The translations under genes and the position numbers were made by a program. Positions 6,871-36,499 of a DNA stretch of 64,000 bases are shown here, one piece after another (within the stretch, counting starts at the first letter, position 1; the number at the start of each line of letters is the position of its first letter). Origin of the DNA: a virus. Lineage: Duplodnaviria > Heunggongvirae > Uroviricota > Caudoviricetes. Under the pieces are notes generated by a model. It saw only the letters and a list, made by a program, of their open reading frames with translations, was not told the origin of the DNA and made no database searches. The stretch covers positions 1-64,000 of IMG/VR virus record IMGVR_UViG_3300044991_001838. The stretch is one strand, 5' to 3'.

Positions 6871-7281
6871 TTATAATTTAATTTCCATTCTTTTTCTCAT
6901 CACATCTACCTTATCTTCAGGTACTCCGTGTTTATTTACGCCACCATGACGATTTTCAACAATAACGGTATAAACTGTATATCCGTATTTTTTTGCAATT
7001 GTCTGATAAAACTTCATTTCCCATTCTTGGGTAAATGTATTTGAGACTACAATATTACGATAAAATATTGAGTTAAACAAACTTGGTATCATTGATTTAT
7101 GAACTTTTCTTTTACAAGAATTGTGAGCGTCTCTCAAATGACTAAAGTTGAATTCGTATTTACCATTTTTAACAAAATAATCATCCGCCTCAAATATTTG
7201 CCACGATTTGGCAATTGATTTCGCAAAGGTTGATTTACCTGAACCAGGAACTCCTCTTACTATGTATAATTTTTTTTCCAT
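6871..7281 (-). CDS. P-loop nucleotide/polynucleotide kinase-like protein
   Basis: Walker A GVPGSGKST near N-terminus; size and context like the PNK kinase domain. Confidence 0.6.
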   Translation of the reverse strand: MEKKLYIVRGVPGSGKSTFAKSIAKSWQIFEADDYFVKNGKYEFNFSHLRDAHNSCKRKVHKSMIPSLFNSIFYRNIVVSNTFTQEWEMKFYQTIAKKYGYTVYTVIVENRHGGVNKHGVPEDKVDVMRKRMEIKL

Positions 7282-15558: not shown

Positions 15559-15586
15559 AAGAAGGGTTAAACACCCTTCTTTTTTG
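15559..15586. terminator. bidirectional terminator between convergent genes
   Basis: A-run, GAAGGGT-loop-ACCCTTC, T-run; overlaps clpP stop. Confidence 0.6.
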
Positions 15587-16247
15587 TTGTAACAACTTCA
15601 TCAATAATCCCGTATTCAAGTGCTTCATCCGCAGTTAACCACAAATCACGAGTAGCATCCAAAGTAACTTGTTCCTCAGTTTTACCACAATAAGAACCTA
15701 ACAAATCAAAAAGAATTTTATTTGTTTTTTCCCATTCCCTCATATTGATACGAGCATCTTGGATATTACCTCCTGCACCACCTGAAGATTGGTGTAACAT
15801 GGTTTTTGAGAATCTCAATGAACTTCTTTTACCTTTAGTTCCAGCCCCCAGCAATACGGACCCCATAGATGCCGCCATACCTGTGTTAATTGTTCTAATA
15901 TCACAAGAAATGTAATCCATAACATCTACCATTGAAAGTCCTGACTTAACACTTCCACCAGGAGAGTCGATATGCATCGTAATGTCCAATTTATCTGATG
16001 AATCTAAGAACATTAACTGAGCTTGGACTATTGTTGACATGTGGTCATTAACAGGTCCAGCAACCCATAAAATTCGGTCTCTCATTAATCTTGAAAAGAT
16101 ATCCATTTGAGTTACTCTCATTTCTCTTTCTTCCAAAATGTATGGAGTCATCGAATTCTCAATTTGAGAATTAAAATTATGTAAATCCAAAGATGGTTTA
16201 CCTAAATGTTTTACATAATAATTTTTAAAATCTTCGCCTATATTCAT
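15567..16247 (-). CDS. clpP: ATP-dependent Clp protease proteolytic subunit ClpP
   Basis: DSPGGSV, catalytic Ser (GMAASMGSVLL), His (MLHQS) and Asp (TRDLWLTADEA) in ClpP order; very close match to the E. coli ClpP remembered. Confidence 0.85.
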   Translation of the reverse strand: MNIGEDFKNYYVKHLGKPSLDLHNFNSQIENSMTPYILEEREMRVTQMDIFSRLMRDRILWVAGPVNDHMSTIVQAQLMFLDSSDKLDITMHIDSPGGSVKSGLSMVDVMDYISCDIRTINTGMAASMGSVLLGAGTKGKRSSLRFSKTMLHQSSGGAGGNIQDARINMREWEKTNKILFDLLGSYCGKTEEQVTLDATRDLWLTADEALEYGIIDEVVTTKKKGV

Positions 16248-21052: not shown

Positions 21053-21120
21053 CAAAATTTAAAATTATGAAAAAGGTATTTGATAATCTTTGAGGTCTGC
21101 TAAACAACAGACTCAAGATT

Positions 21121-21309
21121 ATGAGTGTGAATACAAACAGAATGAAATTGAAGAAGGCAACTTGTTCAAAAGATTACAGATTGATTTGGTTAAAGTTTGA
21201 ATACCCTTCTTATTGGGATGAGGGTGTTCATTACAGAAAAGGACAATTTTCTCACAAATACAGAGAACATAAAACTTGGAAGTATAACCGAAAAACTCAG
21301 TGGAAGTAA
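21121..21309 (+). CDS. hypothetical basic small protein
   Basis: 62-aa ORF between tRNA genes. Confidence 0.3.
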   Translation: MSVNTNRMKLKKATCSKDYRLIWLKFEYPSYWDEGVHYRKGQFSHKYREHKTWKYNRKTQWK

Positions 21310-21417
21310 AATGTGTTGTTCCTGTGAGATAGGAATGAAATAGTCGGGTGAGATTATAAATTTTGAAAAGATTTATGTCTATATTTGCACAACACGAGGA
21401 GTTCTCAACCTCAAAAT

Positions 21418-21507
21418 AGTTAGGTGGCGGAATTGGTAGACGCTTTAAGGTACTTTATCATTGCTGAAGTTTAAATATCCTCACAGGTTCGAGTCCTGTC
21501 CTGACTA
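21418..21507 (+). tRNA. Leu-type class II tRNA-like gene with aberrant, extended anticodon region
   Basis: 5' half AGTTAGG-TG-GCGGAATTGGTAGACGC and 3' half ACAGG-TTCGAGT-CCTGT-CCTGACT-A match the Leu tRNA frame (E. coli tRNA-Leu has GGTGGCGGAATTGGTAGACGC), but 39 nt between D- and T-arms give no 5-bp stem plus 7-nt loop; the region folds as TTTAA-GGT-ACTT-(11-nt loop)-AAGT-TTAAA. Confidence 0.4.
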
Positions 21508-21646: not shown

Positions 21647-21726
21647 AGTCGGGTGGCGGAATTGGATAGACGCGGCCCCGTTGAGGGGTTTAACCGGAAT
21701 TACAGGTTCGAGTCCTGTCCTGACTA
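21647..21726 (+). tRNA. Leu-type tRNA-like gene with 5-nt anticodon loop (probable pseudo- or non-decoding tRNA)
   Basis: Same conserved 5' and 3' halves as 21418-21507; middle GGCCCC-GTTGA-GGGGTT forms a 4-6 bp stem with 5-nt loop. Confidence 0.4.
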
Positions 21727-21944
21727 CGATTGAGATAGAGATACTCAATAGATTTGGCATCGTTACTTAAACAATGATGTAGCTGGTACTCCAAACGGTT
21801 TTACAGAGGGAGTCGTCGGAAAAACGGCAAGAGAACCATCTTGACCTCCGAGTATATGGTTGACTTTTAAGCGGTAAGACGCGATGGGTTTTGAATAGGA
21901 AAACTGTAGATATCTACACCAAAATAATCTCATTGGTGGAAAAT

Positions 21945-22190: not shown

Positions 22191-22376
22191 CAAAAAAAAA
22201 TAATATTTGACAAATTGAAGATTTTGACTATCTTTGATATAATTATAGAAACAATGAAAACTACAATACAACATATGGTCTTTAGTAAACAACAAATAGT
22301 TTGTTGGTATGAGCGTATGCTGCTATGTAGTTCGGATGTAATCGTAGGATAATAATATAAATTTATATCATATCAG

Positions 22377-22412
22377 ACCCCGAACTTTTAATTAAGGTTC
22401 GGGGTTTTTTTA
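22377..22412 (+). terminator. rho-independent terminator
   Basis: GACCCCGAAC-loop-GTTCGGGG then T7. Confidence 0.7.
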
Positions 22413-22446
22413 TTCTATAATCTTTTGCTCTTTGAAATATTGATTG

Positions 22447-22454
22447 TATCTTTG
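22447..22454 (+). promoter_or_regulatory. Bacteroidetes -7 element TATCTTTG upstream of tRNA-Glu/Val/Phe run
   Basis: TAnnTTTG 16 nt before tRNA-Glu; follows terminator 22377-22412. Confidence 0.4.
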
Positions 22455-22470
22455 TAAAAGATTTATTTAT

Positions 22471-22620: not shown

Positions 22621-22766
22621 CTAAGATAATGGTTCTAACCATTCAATGGAATGTCGACAATTCCGAATGGAGCAATAGTTCATCACCCTTTCTGCCGAGG
22701 CCTCATAAAACTCAGGAAAGCAGTTAAGATTGGAGCGAGACGGGTACTCCATCATTATCTTTATTT

Positions 22767-22839: not shown

Positions 22840-23243
22840 CGGAGTCCCGAATTAACGGGAAACCCCCACTCCCATATGGCAGCCAGTCCATTAACCTGGT
22901 GAAGTGGGGTTGTTAGTCGACTGTGTAATGAGGGAAGGTCCCAAACCCCCAAGACCAATAGTCACAGACACTTGTGTTGACTATGGAGTTGTAAGGTTGC
23001 CTTGTGCGGGTTCGAGTCCCGTGTCGACTACACGAGTCGAGTAGTATACGACTAGTTTGCTCCCGAACGATGAGAAGTGGTTTTACAACCATGGGGACCT
23101 GAGCCGATTACTTGAGTCTAAGTCGGTTGGTTAGTGTACCATTAACAGGAGTAAGTTAACACACAAGTTCTAACCCCTCACGTAAGTGGGTTGCCGCTGA
23201 AATTCGGTATTGGGGACAGTCAGAAATGATTGAACGAAAAAAA
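22840..23243 (+). ncRNA. candidate structured stable RNA(s) within tRNA island (tRNA-like 3' terminus)
   Basis: About 400 nt without ORFs, markedly more GC-rich than flanks; ends with T-arm GCGGG-TTCGAGT-CCCGT plus acceptor GTCGACT-A whose complement AGTCGAC lies about 110 nt upstream; multiple local hairpins. Confidence 0.35.
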
Positions 23244-25076: not shown

Positions 25077-25147
25077 ACGTTTGTAGTGCAACGGTAGCAT
25101 CACGGTCTCCAACACCGTTGGTGGGGGTTCGAATCCCTCCAAGCGTG
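25077..25147 (+). tRNA. tRNA-Trp (CCA)
   Basis: Acceptor ACGTTTG/CAAGCGT, D-arm GTGC-AACGGTA-GCAT, anticodon arm ACGGT-CTCCAAC-ACCGT, T-arm GGGGG-TTCGAAT-CCCTC. Confidence 0.75.
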
Positions 25148-25449
25148 CAAAAGGTTGATTGGGGAATGATTGTACTAATAGTTCGAGAGTGAATGCCGGC
25201 TAGTACAATCGGAGTTGGGAGGTATTCACCTAAGTAACGCTAATCGTAAAAACAGATGTCCACGCAACCATCTTCTGTTTTCCTAAAAGAATTAAGACAG
25301 ACCTATAACTTACGTCAGTGGTAGTGTAGGGGTGAGGTTCGGAGTAATCAACCAAACCAAGAGACCGCCGAGGGTAAACACGGGTATGATGCCCGTCTAG
25401 TCCCCTAAGACTGAAATATCGGAGAATCCTCATTGTCTGTTTTATAATT
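25148..25449 (+). ncRNA. candidate structured stable RNA within tRNA island
   Basis: GC-rich ORF-free 300 nt; 10-bp stem GATTGTACTA/TAGTACAATC (25168-25212), hairpin ACAGATG...CATCTTCTGTTTT with U-tract, hairpin ACGGGTATGATGCCCGT. Confidence 0.35.
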
Positions 25450-25530
25450 GGGAGTGTTGAGCAATTGGTCGCTTAGCAGACTGTAAATCTGTGGTCTACG
25501 ACATTGGGGGTTCGAATCCCTCCACTCCCA
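25450..25530 (+). tRNA. tRNA-Tyr (GUA), class II
   Basis: Acceptor GGGAGTG/CACTCCC, anticodon arm GCAGA-CTGTAAA-TCTGT, 13-nt variable arm, T-arm GGGGG-TTCGAAT-CCCTC. Confidence 0.8.
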
Positions 25531-25679
25531 CAAACAAGGAAACAACCCCTGAGTTGGTAAGCGCTTATCCGGACTCAAGAGAAGTAAAGTTATCAGATGG
25601 GTGCGTAACGCCTTGGACTACTATTATTGAATGATACGAGCCTGCAAAGTTCGAAAGGAGTCAGGTAGTAGTCAATTTT

Positions 25680-25753
25680 GGACCTTTAACTCAGTCGGTT
25701 AGAGTAGCTCGCTCATAACGAGAAGGTCCCAGGTTCGAGTCCTGGATGGTCCA
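25680..25753 (+). tRNA. tRNA-Met or Ile2 (CAU), elongator-type
   Basis: Acceptor GGACCTT/ATGGTCC (one mismatch), D-arm ACTC-AGTCGGTTAGAGT, anticodon loop CUCAUAA, T-arm CCAGG-TTCGAGT-CCTGG; 1:72 paired so not initiator. Confidence 0.65.
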
Positions 25754-26175: not shown

Positions 26176-26754
26176 ATGGAAAAGAAATTAACATTAACAA
26201 AGGAACAATTATTTAAAGTGATGCACTTGAATGAGGCGGAAAACAAACCAGGTTTAACAAAGTCACCTAAATTATACTCGTTATCAGATAAGACAATTAA
26301 AATCTTAACTGATAGAATCAAAGACGAATATACTGCACATTATTATTACAGAGCGGCAACTAACTGGTGTGCGGATATGAACTACAAAAAAGCGGCAGCG
26401 TTTTTTGAAAATGAGGCAAAAGATGAATTAGGTCATTCTGAGATTTTACAACAATATATGACCGATTTCAATATTATCCCTGAAATCCCATCAGCAAAAA
26501 TTAGTCATACTTTCAATAGTTTGGAAGAAATTATTAATGGAGCTTATGAAATGGAATTGGCATTAATGAAAGCATATAACAAAGATTCACAAACAGTATT
26601 TTCTGATGATATTACAACATTTGATGTTTTAACTAAATTTAGAAAAATTCAAAAAGGTGCCGTAGTTGAGTATAACGACTTAATTAATGCATTGAGTTTA
26701 ATTGATAGTAAAGATAAGTTCCAAGTATTATACTTTGAACAAACATACTTTTAA
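26176..26754 (+). CDS. ferritin-like (non-haem ferritin) protein
   Basis: AATNWCADMNYKKAAAFFENEAKDELGHSEILQQYMTDFNIIP parallels FtnA [42 protein letters not shown]; tracked ORF start 26029 lies inside tRNA-His, so start reset to MEKKL at 26176. Confidence 0.65.
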   Translation: MEKKLTLTKEQLFKVMHLNEAENKPGLTKSPKLYSLSDKTIKILTDRIKDEYTAHYYYRAATNWCADMNYKKAAAFFENEAKDELGHSEILQQYMTDFNIIPEIPSAKISHTFNSLEEIINGAYEMELALMKAYNKDSQTVFSDDITTFDVLTKFRKIQKGAVVEYNDLINALSLIDSKDKFQVLYFEQTYF

Positions 26755-26776
26755 TATAGAAGAGATTTAAATACTA

Positions 26777-26812
26777 AATCCCTCTGATTAAAAGTCAGGG
26801 GGATTTTTTTTA
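26777..26812 (+). terminator. rho-independent terminator after ferritin gene
   Basis: ATCCCTCTGA-TTAAAAG-TCAGGGGGAT then T8. Confidence 0.7.
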
Positions 26813-31292: not shown

Positions 31293-31299
31293 CTTTTTG

Positions 31300-31770
31300 G
31301 TGGAGATGTCGGCTTCGAAGCCGAGTGTTGTTCACCCTAATTGTTCAGGACTACACGTTTAGGATAACATTAGTTCTCAATGTTCCAAAATATCAGGTCT
31401 GATGTATGTGAGAAACCTACCTGCAAACAACTTGGTCTTAGAGTTATTTTAAACGAGCTCTAACCTGTCACCCGTATACTGAACTTCTGTTGCTAGGTTG
31501 AATGTTCTAACCGACCCCTTGTTGTTCCCTGAACTATGCAGTAACAACAGCTTCTTCTCTAGTCAAACCTAAAGCAGAAAGCTTAGCAAAAGTATTGCCA
31601 ATTGAATTTTACCATCACAGATTTAAGTCATAGATGATGTTTGACTACGTGCCCCAAATAAGTAGTAATGCCAGTCAATTCCATTTCATCCCCTTATTTT
31701 AACACTACAAAGATAGAAATAAATATGTAGATTCCAAACAGAAAAGGTATTTATATTAAAAATAGTTTTT
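31300..31770. ncRNA. GC-rich ORF-free segment, candidate ncRNA
   Basis: About 470 nt with no ORF of 60 aa or more apart from an edge overlap; perfect hairpin GTCGGCTTCGAAGCCGAG near its start; GC clearly above genome background. Confidence 0.25.
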
Positions 31771-34486: not shown

Positions 34487-36499
34487 TTATCTACCTTTTT
34501 TCTGAATTTTAACCTCATCATTATCTACCTTGATAACATAAGATTTACCTTCAATCATTTTACCAAGAAGAACTTCTTCTGATAATAAATCCTCAACCTT
34601 ATCTTGAATTGCTCTTTTCAAAGGTCTTGCCCCGTATAATTCATCAAATCCAATTTTGGATAGGTAATCAACCAATGTTGAATCATAAGTTACTTTGTAC
34701 TTCATATCACTAAGACGAACAGTTAATTTTTTTAACTCAATCTCTGTGATTTTTTTGATATCATCAATAGTCAAAGAGTTAAATACGATAGTATCGTCAA
34801 TACGGTTAATAAATTCAGGTGAGAAAAAGTTTTTCATCTCTTTCATCAATACTTGTTTCTTTGCCTCTTCATTTGAATAAGGGTTATTAGAAAATCCAAT
34901 ACCTGTACCAAAATCTTGTAATTTCTTAACACCCAAATTTGAAGTTAGGATAATCAAAGTATTTTTAAAATTAATCTTACGACCTAAACTATCAGTCACA
35001 TGACCATCATCCAAGATTTGAAGTAAAACTGTAAACACATCTTTGTGTGCTTTTTCTACCTCATCAAATAAGATAACAGAGTAAGGTCTGTTCTTAACTT
35101 TTTCAGTTAATAATCCACCTTCTTCATAACCAACATATCCTGGAGGTGCTCCAACCAATTTAGAAATACTGTGTTTCTCTTGGTACTCAGACATATCCAC
35201 ACGAATAAGAGAATCCTCAGAGCCAAACATTTCTTTAGCTAATTGTTTGGCCAAGTGAGTTTTACCAACACCTGTTGACCCTAAGAACACAAATGAACCT
35301 ATTGGACGATTTGGGTCTTTGATACCCAAACGGTTTCTTTTAATAGATTTTGCAATTTTAATAACCGCTGCGTCCTGACCAATCACTTTACCTATCAACT
35401 CTTTATCCAAGTTTAATAAAGCCTTAGTATCATCAACATTCATTTTGCTTACAGGAATCTTAACCATATTAGAAACCACATCATAAACATCTTCCAAATT
35501 AACTTTTTGTTTATTTTCTGACATAGACTCTTCAAACTTAAGTTTTTCAGATTCCAATTTGGCCAAAACTTTTTTCTCTTTGTCCCTTAATTGGGCCGCC
35601 TGTTCGTAGTTTTGTTTTTTAACAACATCAATTTTTTGTTGTTTAATCTCCGAAGCATCCTTTTTTAATTTCTCAATTATTTCAGGAACCTTAAGCTCGG
35701 TTTGCATACGAGCACCAACCTCATCCAAGATATCAAATGCTTTATCAGGAAATTCTCTATCTGTGATATATCTATCCGCCAATTTAACACAAGCTTCAAT
35801 AACCTCATCGTTATAAATGACTTTATGAAATGACTCATACTTGTCACGAACATTTTTAAGGATTTCAATTGTCTCAACAACAGATGATGGTTCAACAATT
35901 ACTTTTTGGAATCTTCTTTCCAATGCTCCGTCTTTCTCAATATTCTTACGGAACTCATCAAGGGTAGTTGCACCAATACATTGAAGTTCACCACGAGATA
36001 ATGCGGGTTTGAAAATGTTTGAACCATCCATTGACCCTGAAGAATTACCAGAACCTACTAATGTGTGAATCTCATCAATAAACACAATAATGTTTGGGTT
36101 ATCACGAAGTTCTTCAATAATCACTTTCATTCTTTCTTCAAATTGACCACGATACTTTGTACCTGCAACAACTGAAGTTAAATCTAAGTTTACAATTCTT
36201 TTATCAACCAAGTTTCTCGGACATTCTCCGGTAACAATTTTAATTGCCAATCCCTCAACCAAAGCGGTTTTACCACAACCAGGTTCTCCAATGATAATAG
36301 GGTTATTTTTCTTTCTACGAGATAAGATTTGTGCAATTCTTAAAATCTCTTTGTCACGACCAATTACGGGGTCTAATTTACCTTCCTCAGCAAGTCTATT
36401 CAAATCTCTACTAAAGTTATCTAAAACAGGTGTACTGCTTTCTGATTGAGATTGTTTTTTACTCATTGTTTTGTCGTCGTCATCCATTAAGTCGTTCAT
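34487..36499 (-). CDS. clpC: Clp/Hsp100 AAA+ unfoldase, ClpC/ClpA-like, lacking N-domain, with ClpP-docking IGF loop
   Basis: D1 Walker A GEPGCGKT and B IVFIDEIH; linker with UVR-like motif YEQAAQLRD; D2 Walker A GSTGVGKT and B ILFDEVEKAH; GTGIGFSNNP IGF loop; C-terminal GARPLKRAIQ. Confidence 0.85.
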   Translation of the reverse strand: MNDLMDDDDKTMSKKQSQSESSTPVLDNFSRDLNRLAEEGKLDPVIGRDKEILRIAQILSRRKKNNPIIIGEPGCGKTALVEGLAIKIVTGECPRNLVDKRIVNLDLTSVVAGTKYRGQFEERMKVIIEELRDNPNIIVFIDEIHTLVGSGNSSGSMDGSNIFKPALSRGELQCIGATTLDEFRKNIEKDGALERRFQKVIVEPSSVVETIEILKNVRDKYESFHKVIYNDEVIEACVKLADRYITDREFPDKAFDILDEVGARMQTELKVPEIIEKLKKDASEIKQQKIDVVKKQNYEQAAQLRDKEKKVLAKLESEKLKFEESMSENKQKVNLEDVYDVVSNMVKIPVSKMNVDDTKALLNLDKELIGKVIGQDAAVIKIAKSIKRNRLGIKDPNRPIGSFVFLGSTGVGKTHLAKQLAKEMFGSEDSLIRVDMSEYQEKHSISKLVGAPPGYVGYEEGGLLTEKVKNRPYSVILFDEVEKAHKDVFTVLLQILDDGHVTDSLGRKINFKNTLIILTSNLGVKKLQDFGTGIGFSNNPYSNEEAKKQVLMKEMKNFFSPEFINRIDDTIVFNSLTIDDIKKITEIELKKLTVRLSDMKYKVTYDSTLVDYLSKIGFDELYGARPLKRAIQDKVEDLLSEEVLLGKMIEGKSYVIKVDNDEVKIQKKGR

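What the first reader, a model, noticed from the sequence alone, without database searches (positions are those of the whole stretch)
25148..25449. Second GC-rich structured ORF-free segment inside the tRNA island
Contains a 10-bp perfect stem (GATTGTACTA/TAGTACAATC) with 23-nt loop, a terminator-like hairpin plus U-tract at about 25252-25283 and another GC hairpin; immediately precedes tRNA-Tyr. Candidate stable small RNA(s).
Basis: seen in the sequence. Interest (0 to 1): 0.65.

Follow-up and report, generated by a model that had tools for sequence, protein, structure and literature searches.

The report
Two conserved phage tRNA-island RNAs
The 300-base gap between two tRNA genes of this uncultured phage holds two separate, conserved, intricately folded non-coding RNA genes of unknown function; one recurs beside tRNA genes in well over a hundred other phage contigs and matches no described RNA family.

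Summary
In this one sequence they are no better than chance: MFE z is about 0, and a perfect 10-bp stem is expected about 0.05 times in 300 nt. Comparison with related phage contigs decides the matter.

The segment is two independent RNA genes on the tRNA strand.

- **Module A (25152-25284)** belongs to a family with at least 133 distinct sequences in IMG/VR phage contigs.
  - It is nearly always inside a tRNA array, on the tRNA strand, and often only a few nt from a tRNA on either side.
  - It folds as a three-way junction (P1, P2, P4). A variable central domain here forms a hairpin plus an H-type pseudoknot.
  - All helices covary. About 40 nt are invariant, including the P4 loop GUCCAC-N4-CCAUCU.
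- **Module B (25295-25442)** is rarer (13 distinct sequences, 94% identical), has seven helices, two of them covarying, and usually ends a tRNA array.

Neither module matches Rfam 15, T4 rnaC/rnaD or any GenBank phage. The "terminator-like hairpin" is the family's conserved P4 and fails terminator criteria.

Most likely these are stable RNAs cut out of the polycistronic tRNA precursor, like T4 species 1 and 2. What they do in trans is unknown, and a new ribozyme class is not excluded. Expression is untested.

The parts
25077..25148 (+). tRNA-Trp (CCA), the upstream neighbour. No CCA end is encoded. 3 nt separate it from module A.
   Evidence: ARAGORN and Rfam at 61.7 bits. tRNA-Trp is the upstream neighbour in 31 of 55 family members that have a tRNA within 40 nt upstream.
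25152..25284 (+). Module A: a 133-nt structured RNA, member of a widespread phage tRNA-array RNA family (three-way junction plus pseudoknotted central domain).
   Evidence: nhmmer splits the segment into two modules. Covariance model R1 scores 115.4 bits, E 1.7e-26, and finds a single copy in the window. There are at least 133 distinct homologues.
25152..25154 (+). A-P1 5' strand (AGG). Pairs with 25282-25284 (CCU) and closes the molecule.
   Evidence: helix 1: 98.1% paired. The outer pair is A-U in 61, U-A in 5 and G-U in 2 sequences.
25156..25162 (+). A-P2 5' strand (UGAUUGG). Pairs with 25240-25246 (CUAAUCG).
   Evidence: helix 2: 100% paired in 72 sequences. One pair is G-C in 65, A-U in 4 and G-U in 3. 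The outer pair is U-G in 45 and U-A in 27.
25168..25177 (+). Pairs with 25201-25210.
   Evidence: I1. helix 3: 6 of 10 pairs change on both sides. Nine pairs are conserved; the tenth (25177-25201) pairs in only 8 of 21 sequences.
25189..25197 (+). A-pseudoknot 5' strand (GUGAAUGCC), in the P3 loop. Pairs with 25221-25229 (GGUAUUCAC) downstream of P3, forming an H-type pseudoknot.
   Evidence: I4. helix 4: 100% of cells paired and 8 of 9 pairs change on both sides.
25249..25281 (+). The stem is 25249-25256 / 25274-25281. The 17-nt loop is 25257-25273 and carries the invariant GUCCAC (25258-25263) and CCAUCU (25268-25273).
   Evidence: helix 3: three pairs have 2-5 pair types each. When members are collected by the 5' half only, 132 of 133 keep the loop motif, and further stem pair types appear. 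The terminator scan does not call it.
25295..25442 (+). Module B: a 148-nt structured RNA closed by an 8-bp terminal helix (25295-25302 / 25435-25442) that runs into a U-tract.
   Evidence: nhmmer and pattern scans give 13 distinct sequences at 94% column identity. Structure counts: 99.2% paired against 39-52% when slid.
25328..25332 (+). B long-range helix, 5' strand (AGGGG). Pairs with 25428-25433 (CCUCAU, with A25432 bulged).
   Evidence: helix 3: 100% paired and 4 of 5 pairs change on both sides.
25380..25396 (+).
   Evidence: helix 7: 4 of 7 pairs change on both sides.
25336..25358 (+). B hairpin GGUU.GG / CC.AACC. It is invariant, so neither supported nor contradicted by variation.
   Evidence: helix 4: 100% paired, with one G-C to G-U change.
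25368..25374 (+). B helices CCGA (pairs with 25419-25422 UCGG) and GGG (pairs with 25402-25404 CCC). These were predicted only and never vary.
   Evidence: helices 5 and 6.
25450..25531 (+). tRNA-Tyr (GTA), the downstream neighbour, 7 nt after module B.
   Evidence: tRNA-Tyr directly follows module A in 43 of 68 relatives that have a tRNA within 14 nt downstream.

Best explanation
The segment holds two unrelated, independently inherited non-coding RNA genes that are part of the phage's polycistronic tRNA operon.

**How it most likely works**
- Both are transcribed on the tRNA strand, together with tRNA-Cys, tRNA-Trp, tRNA-Tyr and the tRNAs that follow.
- Each folds into a compact structure whose 5' and 3' ends are clamped by a terminal helix.
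- Each is released as a discrete RNA of about 133 nt (A) or 148 nt (B) by the cuts that mature the neighbouring tRNAs: RNase P at the 5' end of the next tRNA, 3'-trailer cleavage and trimming of the previous one.
- The closing helices then protect the ends.
- This is the arrangement known for T4 stable RNA species 1 and 2.

**What kind of RNA each is**
- Module A has about 40 invariant nucleotides in its junctions and loop, next to freely varying stems and a swappable peripheral domain. That marks an RNA with a specific tertiary fold and a specific partner or chemistry. It most plausibly acts in trans on the translation or tRNA machinery during infection.
- Module B usually sits last in its tRNA array and ends in helix plus U-run, so it may also serve as the array's 3'-terminal cap.

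**Shown:** two modules, conservation, structure, strand, genomic context, absence from the known families tested.

**Inferred:** co-transcription, excision by tRNA-processing enzymes, stability, trans action.
For: **Two modules**
- nhmmer hits cover either query positions 2-138 or about 117/147-299 in different relatives.

**Module A family**
- There are 109 distinct sequences from the first scan and 133 overall.
- Core helices are 99.2% paired, against 60% or less when slid, with covariation in P1, P2 and P4.
- P3 and the pseudoknot covary at 6 of 10 and 8 of 9 pairs.
- The loop motif is kept in 132 of 133 sequences collected independently of it.

**Context of A**
- 105 of 112 instances have a tRNA within 1 kb.
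- All 191 nearest tRNAs are on the same strand.
- The upstream tRNA typically ends 3-4 nt before the GG (45 of the 55 with a tRNA within 40 nt).
- The downstream tRNA starts 5-8 nt after the CC in 67 instances.
- These gaps match the 3-5 nt tRNA-tRNA spacers of this island.
- No promoter or terminator is called inside the segment. The nearest strong + strand terminators are at 22375-22407 and 26776-26806.
- No neighbouring protein family is shared by more than 24 of 106 loci, so A is a stand-alone RNA gene.

**Module B**
- 99.2% paired, with two helices covarying.
- In 13 of 15 contexts it is followed by a T-rich, AT-rich stretch and has no tRNA within 1 kb downstream.

**Precedent**
- T4 rnaC and rnaD (139 and 119 nt) are annotated directly beside tRNA-Arg on the tRNA strand.
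- The window's major head protein belongs to the T4-type capsid family.
Against: - There is no expression, end-mapping or stability data of any kind. All relatives are uncultured contigs.
- Thermodynamic folding gives no signal (z about 0).
- Module A's single-sequence MFE fold is not the covariation-supported one.
- Neither module carries a recognisable RNase P or tRNA-like determinant. Rfam and ARAGORN find nothing.
- Release at the 5' side of A therefore depends on unspecified trailer cleavage.
- 37 of 112 A instances have their nearest upstream tRNA 40 nt or more away, and 20 have none in the fetched DNA. Some of these are preceded by other non-tRNA modules or lie near a locus end.
- Module B rests on only 13 near-identical sequences. 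Five of its seven helices never vary or vary only on one side.
- The trans function is pure inference.
Confidence: 0.62

Rival explanations
1. Module A, and possibly B, is a self-cleaving ribozyme of an undescribed class. It would cut the polycistronic precursor next to the tRNA and make the phage independent of host 3'-trailer nucleases, as proposed for HDV-like theta ribozymes.
For: - A starts 2-4 nt after a tRNA 3' end in about half of the instances. Theta ribozymes are likewise associated with tRNA sequences in phages thought to infect Bacteroidota (PMC10879173).
- The only bacterial-genome hits to A are three short contigs in Bacteroidota MAGs.
- About 40 invariant nucleotides sit in junctions and a loop, while the stems covary and the peripheral domain is swappable. 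This is the conservation pattern of small ribozymes.
- The fold is pseudoknotted.
Against: - No Rfam ribozyme model matches even at E up to 10.
- The helix order is nested (P1, P2, P2', P4, P4', P1'), not the nested double pseudoknot of HDV-like ribozymes.
- No hammerhead, twister, pistol or hatchet core is visible in the sequence.
- Spacing is equally tight on the 3' side, to the next tRNA, which a 5'-cleaving ribozyme does not need.
Confidence: 0.13
2. The modules are cis-acting elements rather than trans-acting RNAs. They would be folding insulators or processing platforms that help the neighbouring tRNAs, especially tRNA-Tyr, to mature. Alternatively they would act as a riboswitch or attenuator whose P4 hairpin plus U-run controls read-through into the downstream tRNAs.
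For: - Spacing to the downstream tRNA is fixed, and 43 of 68 downstream tRNAs are tRNA-Tyr.
- Loop subtype correlates with the downstream tRNA..ACCAUC before Tyr..CCCAUC before Thr or others.
- P4 is followed by UUU(U)CC.
- Module B ends in helix plus U-tract and usually ends an array.
Against: - P4 fails the terminator criteria and its loop is invariant rather than arbitrary.
- The downstream partner is not fixed: Tyr, Thr, Met, Val, Glu, Asn, Trp or none.
- The link between subtype and tRNA is equally explained by synteny within two paralogous lineages, which can occur in tandem.
- No known riboswitch class matches.
Confidence: 0.1
3. The segment encodes a small protein on the opposite strand: the 67-aa ORF at 25230-25433 (-).
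For: - The ORF exists.
- The same minus-strand frame stays open across module B in 12 of 13 variants.
Against: - The start codon is lost in L230, and the frame is broken by indels in L226.
- The ORF's C-terminal third lies in module A, which is absent from most genomes that carry B.
- At 94% nucleotide identity an open frame is expected to persist. By my arithmetic one stop-free frame among six over 46 codons has a chance of roughly 0.5.
- There is no Pfam match at E up to 1.
- G+C is 45%, against about 30% for this phage's genes.
- The substitutions are compensatory for RNA helices.
Confidence: 0.03
4. The modules are decayed or non-canonical tRNAs (pseudogenes, intron-containing tRNAs or tRNA-like structures) left in the array.
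For: - They occupy tRNA slots in the array with tRNA-like spacers.
- Published screens report candidate structured RNAs in phages that overlap tRNA predictions (PMC10690425).
Against: - ARAGORN and the Rfam tRNA model find nothing in 25149-25449, even at E up to 10.
- There is no T-loop or anticodon arm.
- The covarying helices form a three-way junction with a pseudoknot, not a cloverleaf.
- Invariance across at least 133 sequences is incompatible with decay.
Confidence: 0.03

Closest known systems
Phage T4 stable RNAs species 1 and 2 (rnaC, rnaD)
   Same: Small RNAs (139 and 119 nt) of unknown function. They are encoded inside the tRNA gene cluster on the tRNA strand, a few nt from tRNA-Arg and from each other. 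That they are processed out of the tRNA precursor is established T4 knowledge. The window phage has a T4-type major head protein.
   Different: No sequence or structure similarity. Model R1 finds nothing in the T4 tRNA region. In the sequence, T4 species 1 ends in a tRNA-like T-arm and acceptor; module A has none. A has a pseudoknotted three-way junction and a much wider distribution.
HDV-like theta ribozymes next to phage tRNAs (Kienbeck et al. 2024, PMC10879173)
   Same: A small structured RNA associated with tRNA sequences in Caudoviricetes thought to infect Bacteroidota. A role in tRNA 3'-trailer processing has been proposed.
   Different: Theta ribozymes have the nested double-pseudoknot HDV fold. 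Module A's helices are nested apart from one H-type pseudoknot in a dispensable peripheral domain. No HDV-family Rfam hit. Catalysis is untested.
GOLLD and ROOL RNAs
   Same: Structured, pseudoknotted RNAs of unknown function encoded in phages and prophages, often near tRNA islands (PMC12286853).
   Different: They are much larger: many GOLLD members exceed 800 nt, and both classes form multimeric cages. Their Rfam models do not match here. A and B are 133 and 148 nt.
Bacterial RNAs derived from tRNA-operon spacers (E. coli rtT RNA of the tyrT operon; the 3'ETS-leuZ sponge)
   Same: RNAs released as by-products of tRNA precursor processing that then act in trans (my own knowledge, not tested here).
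   Different: Those are poorly structured and lineage-restricted. rtT is an Rfam family by my recollection and nothing in Rfam matches. A and B are highly structured and phage-specific: only 3 hits in 185,579 bacterial and archaeal genomes, all on short MAG contigs.

Membership tests
tRNA (Rfam RF00005 / ARAGORN) | Cloverleaf with T-loop and anticodon arm, scoring above the family threshold | tested here: not met
   No tRNA call inside 25149-25449 by ARAGORN or by Rfam at E up to 10. The covarying helices do not form a cloverleaf.
Intrinsic (Rho-independent) terminator | G+C-rich stem, loop of 3-8 nt, followed directly by a run of at least 5 U | tested here: not met
   The scan calls none in 25148-25449. 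P4 has a 17-nt invariant loop and an AU-rich stem, and in relatives a tRNA follows within 5-8 nt.
HDV-like / theta ribozymes | Nested double pseudoknot with helix order P1-P2-P3-P3'-P1'-P4-P4'-P2' | tested here: not met
   The helix order in A is P1-P2-(P3/PK)-P2'-P4-P4'-P1'. No HDV-type Rfam match.
HDV-like / theta ribozymes | Site-specific self-cleavage at the ribozyme's 5' edge | not testable with these tools
   Needs an in vitro cleavage assay.
HDV-like / theta ribozymes | Position next to a phage tRNA gene | tested here: met
   The tRNA ends 2-7 nt upstream in 51 of 112 instances.
T4 species 1/2-type stable RNAs (functional class, not a homology family) | Encoded within the tRNA cluster, same strand, tRNA-like spacers | tested here: met
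   compared with the T4 annotation.
T4 species 1/2-type stable RNAs (functional class, not a homology family) | Sequence or structure homology to rnaC or rnaD | tested here: not met
   R1 finds no match in T4 69000-74000. No similarity by eye.
T4 species 1/2-type stable RNAs (functional class, not a homology family) | Accumulates as a discrete stable RNA after precursor processing | not testable with these tools
   Needs a Northern blot or RNA-seq of infected cells.
Any Rfam 15 family (riboswitches, ribozymes, sRNAs, GOLLD, ROOL, 5S, RNase P, tmRNA, Y RNA) | Covariance-model match at or near the gathering score | tested here: not met
   Nothing at the gathering threshold. At E up to 10 the only match falling mainly inside 25149-25449 is snoJ33, 14.4 bits against a cut-off of 45.
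New family 'module A' (defined here) | 5' NGG-U-UGAUURG ... GCYAAUCR-UAAAA-stem-[GUCCAC-N4-CCAUCU]-stem-UUU-CCN', with P1, P2 and P4 pairing | tested here: met
   The window copy scores 115.4 bits over the full model length. All three core helices are intact, with one G-U in P2.

The most novel reading that the evidence does not exclude
Module A is the founding member of a new class of catalytic or otherwise active RNA specific to phage tRNA arrays.

- **First reading:** a self-cleaving or precursor-processing ribozyme with a fold unlike any known class.
- **Second reading:** a trans-acting RNA whose invariant loop binds a CCA-recognising component of the host tRNA or translation machinery, or decoys a tRNA-targeting defence nuclease. 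The loop carries two CCA triplets, UCCAC and NCCAU, which resemble tRNA 3' ends.
- **Wider point:** every ORF-free spacer of this island is conserved in other phages. The island would then be a mosaic operon of tRNAs plus eight or more undescribed RNA gene families that assort independently.
Probability: 0.15. Interest if true: 0.85.

Novelty: new variant of a known kind. Interest (0 to 1): 0.6.

Why it matters
Phage tRNA islands are usually read as codon-usage or anti-defence tRNA sets. The gaps between the tRNAs are ignored.

- **What is found here.** One such gap holds two conserved, covariation-supported RNA genes. One of them is a compact pseudoknotted RNA with about 40 invariant nucleotides, at least 133 sequence variants, a ~72-nt minimal form (84-85 nt with flanks) and no match in Rfam 15.
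- **Why that pattern is promising.** Invariant junctions and loop beside covarying stems and a swappable peripheral domain is the signature that has previously led to new ribozyme and riboswitch classes.
- **An old open question.** The function of T4's species 1 and 2 RNAs has been unknown for about 50 years. A much larger family in the same genomic niche gives comparative leverage on why phages put non-tRNA RNAs inside tRNA operons.
- **A practical gain.** The minimal form is small enough for direct biochemical tests.
- **A wider hint.** All other spacers of this island are conserved too, so the phenomenon may be general.

Tried and rejected
- **Rfam.** Searched at the gathering threshold on the window, at E up to 10 on 25100-25700 and at E up to 1 on the whole island. 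Nothing was found for either module.
- **Single-sequence thermodynamics.** Uninformative and misleading for module A.
- **Exact-protein look-up of the 199-aa neighbour.** Returned only identical copies, so no variation.
- **GenBank phages.** blastn with the 301 nt and with a minimal consensus gave only chance hits or none.
- **T4 rnaC/rnaD.** Fetched and searched with R1; no relation.
- **Model R1 on 80 loci chosen by a neighbouring protein.** Found no divergent members beyond those nhmmer had already found. Tandem second copies are masked by hit overlap.
- **Group I intron, RNase P RNA, 5S rRNA and HDV-like readings.** I considered these from short sequence resemblances (for example UGGUAGUGUAGGGGU in B against 5S rRNA, CCUAAGAC against group I P7/P9.0). 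I dropped them because the resembling stretches are not conserved in relatives or the helix order does not fit, and Rfam gives no support.
- **Tertiary contacts of the P4 loop by mutual information.** Only subfamily signal appears, because the loop is invariant.
- **A partner protein by clustering ORFs within 4 kb of A in 106 loci.** None is shared widely.
- **Literature.** Searches for the motif sequence and for tRNA-array RNAs found no description.
- **Minus-strand ORF.** Tested and rejected.

Full report
**Setting.** The window is part of a tailed-phage genome. It encodes a terminase, a portal protein and a T4-type major head protein. The closest cultured capsids are only about 42% identical: Flavobacterium phage vB_FspM_immuto and Microcystis phage Mel-JY01. 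DNA is about 25-35% G+C. Between about 17.9 and 27.4 kb lies an island of 22 ARAGORN tRNAs, all on the + strand, plus one more found by Rfam. The finding is the 301-nt gap between tRNA-Trp (25077-25148) and tRNA-Tyr (25450-25531).

**Checking the observation.**
  - The perfect 10-bp repeat is at 25168-25177 / 25201-25210 with a 23-nt spacer.
  - The AAAACAGA/TCTGTTTT hairpin is at 25249-25256 / 25274-25281.
  - A G+C-rich hairpin is at 25380-25396.
- The gap is 45-46% G+C, like the tRNAs and unlike the surrounding genes.
- No + strand ORF of 25 aa or more lies within it. A 67-aa ORF is present on the - strand.
- In this one sequence none of this exceeds chance.
  - MFE z-scores are -0.01 for the whole gap, +0.02 for module A and -0.70 for module B.
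  - The MFE fold of module A is not the fold that evolution supports.
- The "terminator-like" label fails. The consensus scan calls strong terminators elsewhere in the island (22375-22407, 26776-26806) but nothing inside the gap.

**Related sequences.**
- Exact-match look-up of the neighbouring 199-aa protein returned only identical contigs.
- A relatives search with the same protein fetched 80 IMG/VR loci at 65-97% protein identity.
- nhmmer of the 301 nt against these loci showed that the gap is two units with separate histories.
  - Some relatives carry only query positions 2-138.
  - Others carry only about 117/147-299.
  - A few carry two tandem copies of the first unit.

**Module A (25152-25284).**

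*Distribution.*
- An independent scan anchored only on the 5' half and P2 also stopped at the limit, with at least 119.
- Together they give 133 distinct sequences.

*Architecture.*
- The architecture is 5'-N-GG / U / UGAUURG / [variable centre, 17-103 nt in this set] / GCYAAUCR / UAAAA / stem / loop / stem / UUU / CC-N'.
- On 72 representatives the three core helices are 99.2% paired, against 40-60% when partners are slid.
- Both-side changes occur in P1 (A-U and U-A), P2 (G-C, A-U, G-U) and three P4 pairs with up to five pair types.
- The 5'-anchored set adds further pair types in P4.
- In that set 132 of 133 sequences keep GUCCAC-N4-CCAUCU in the loop, so the loop's invariance is not an artefact of how members were collected.

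*Central domain.*
- The central domain is modular. The shortest members (84-85 nt with flanks) have only a 17-nt stretch there.
- Others insert a hairpin.
- In 21 sequences of this subtype the pseudoknot is 100% paired, with double changes at 8 of 9 pairs. The hairpin has double changes at 6 of 10 pairs.

*Strand and copy number.*
- G-U pairs fix the strand as +; for example the U-G in P2 occurs in 45 of 72 sequences.
- A covariance model built from the alignment finds exactly one copy in the window, at 115 bits, and none in the T4 tRNA region.

**Context of module A.**
- Of 112 distinct instances, 105 have a tRNA within 1 kb.
- All 191 nearest tRNAs are on the same strand.
- A tRNA ends 2-7 nt before the GG in 51 instances. 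It is tRNA-Trp in 31 of the 55 that have a tRNA within 40 nt.
- A tRNA begins 5-8 nt after the CC in 67 instances, and after 14 nt in one more. It is tRNA-Tyr in 43 and tRNA-Thr in 12.
- These gaps equal the tRNA-tRNA spacers of this island, so the RNA occupies a tRNA slot in the array.
- Two paralogous subfamilies exist.
  - Loop ..ACCAUC lies mostly before tRNA-Tyr.
  - Loop ..CCCAUC lies before tRNA-Thr or others.
  - The two can lie in tandem.
- No protein family recurs beside it: the best is present in 24 of 106 loci.
- The family is absent from 50,697 GenBank phage records at blastn sensitivity.
- It is essentially absent from 185,579 bacterial and archaeal genomes. The three hits are short contigs in Bacteroidota MAGs and are probably binned phage DNA.

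**Module B (25295-25442).**
- It is rarer: 11 viral and 11 metagenome stretches.
- Thirteen distinct sequences are 94% identical per column, while the neighbouring protein differs by 14-25%.
- A seven-helix model is 99.2% paired, against 39-52% when slid.
  - Two helices covary at four pairs each: the long-range helix 25328-25332 / 25428-25433 and the hairpin 25380-25396.
  - The other five never vary or vary only on one side, and remain predictions.
- An 8-bp terminal helix joins the two ends and runs into a U-tract.
- In 13 of 15 contexts B is the last element of its array, followed by T-rich, AT-rich DNA with no tRNA within 1 kb. In the window it is followed by tRNA-Tyr after 7 nt.
- The minus-strand ORF is not a gene.
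  - Its start is lost in one variant and its frame is broken in another.
  - A third of it lies in module A, which most B-bearing genomes lack.
  - It has no Pfam match.

**What it is.** The segment holds two conserved, structured non-coding RNA genes embedded in a polycistronic tRNA operon.

**How it most likely works (inferred).**
- They are transcribed with the tRNAs. No promoter or terminator is called between the flanking strong terminators at 22375-22407 and 26776-26806.
- They fold with their ends clamped by a terminal helix.
- They are released by the same cuts that mature the adjacent tRNAs, and they persist as stable RNAs.
- This is the arrangement annotated for T4 rnaC and rnaD. It echoes GOLLD and ROOL, which are often encoded near phage tRNA islands.
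- Module A combines invariant junctions and loop with covarying stems and a swappable periphery. That argues for a defined tertiary fold with a specific partner or chemistry. Its actual function is unknown.

**Rivals.**
- A new self-cleaving ribozyme that processes tRNA trailers, by analogy with theta ribozymes. The position and conservation pattern fit. The HDV helix order was tested and not met, and catalysis is untestable here.
- A cis-acting processing or attenuation element for the downstream tRNA. The downstream partner varies and P4 is not terminator-like.
- A decayed tRNA, or a minus-strand peptide. Both are contradicted.

**Comparison with the known, and novelty.**
- Neither module belongs to any Rfam 15 family.
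- Neither is related to T4 rnaC or rnaD.
- A full-text search for the motif sequence found only unrelated primers.
- The large 2023 catalogue of candidate viral structured RNAs does not describe this RNA, and its supplements were not available to check. Prior listing there cannot be excluded.
- The kind, a stable non-tRNA RNA inside a phage tRNA cluster, is known. These families and module A's fold are not.

**Verdict.**
- Interest is moderate to high as a well-defined new RNA family with a small, testable minimal form.
- Certainty about function is low.

Noticed in passing
window 21054-21417, 21728-21944, 22192-22470, 22622-22766, 22841-23243, 25532-25679: Every other ORF-free, non-tRNA spacer of the tRNA island is also conserved in other phage contigs (16-52 nhmmer hits each among the fetched loci). 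The island therefore looks like a mosaic of tRNAs and at least eight independently assorting non-tRNA modules.
   Followed up: partly
It splits into two conserved modules (about 1-192/236 and about 150/168-400). It contains a tRNA-like T-arm minihelix at 22974-23031. It has no Rfam match at E up to 10.
   Followed up: partly
window 31298-31693 (-): A phage-encoded tmRNA is called by Rfam just above threshold (47.9 against 47 bits, full length). ARAGORN does not call it.
   Followed up: no
window 21418-21507 (+): An extra 90-nt tRNA-like gene is found only by the permissive Rfam search (37.5 bits) and missed by ARAGORN. The ARAGORN tRNA-Gln at 21647-21727 is also weak, at 35.6 bits.
   Followed up: no
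L028 7031-7298; also L030, L032, L036, L037, L045, L054: Two paralogous module-A copies lie in tandem between tRNA-Trp and tRNA-Tyr: a ..CCCAUC type followed by a ..ACCAUC type. cmsearch reports only one of them because the hits overlap by a few nt.
   Followed up: partly
window 25258-25273: The invariant P4 loop of module A holds two CCA triplets (UCCAC and ACCAU, or CCCAU in the other subfamily). NCCAUC is also a near copy of the P2 3' strand GCCAAUC. Possible tRNA-3'-end mimicry or alternative pairing; this is pure speculation.
   Followed up: no
window 25339-25349 and 25419-25428: Module B contains an internal near-repeat, UCGGAGUAAUC and UCGGAGAAUC. Both copies are almost invariant across relatives.
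   Followed up: no
L010 about 7205-7233; L209 and L021 at equivalent positions: Directly upstream of module B these relatives have a T-arm plus acceptor-like 3' end (for example ..GGTTCGAATCCTATCATTATCCCA). ARAGORN does not call it as a tRNA, and the nearest called tRNA is 149-454 nt away. It may be a non-canonical tRNA or an RNA like T4 species 1.
   Followed up: no
window 34487-36499 (-), 15567-16247 (-), 26176-26754 (+): The phage encodes a Lon-like ATP-dependent protease (PHROG 4871, E 4e-237), a ClpP protease homologue and a ferritin-like protein beside the tRNA island.
   Followed up: no
L231, L232, L233 (genome contigs): The only 'bacterial genome' hits to module A are contigs of 0.6-2.8 kb in Bacteroidota MAGs (Chitinophagales, Bacteroidetes, Sphingobacteriaceae). 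They are probably phage DNA binned with its host, which hints at the host phylum.
   Followed up: no
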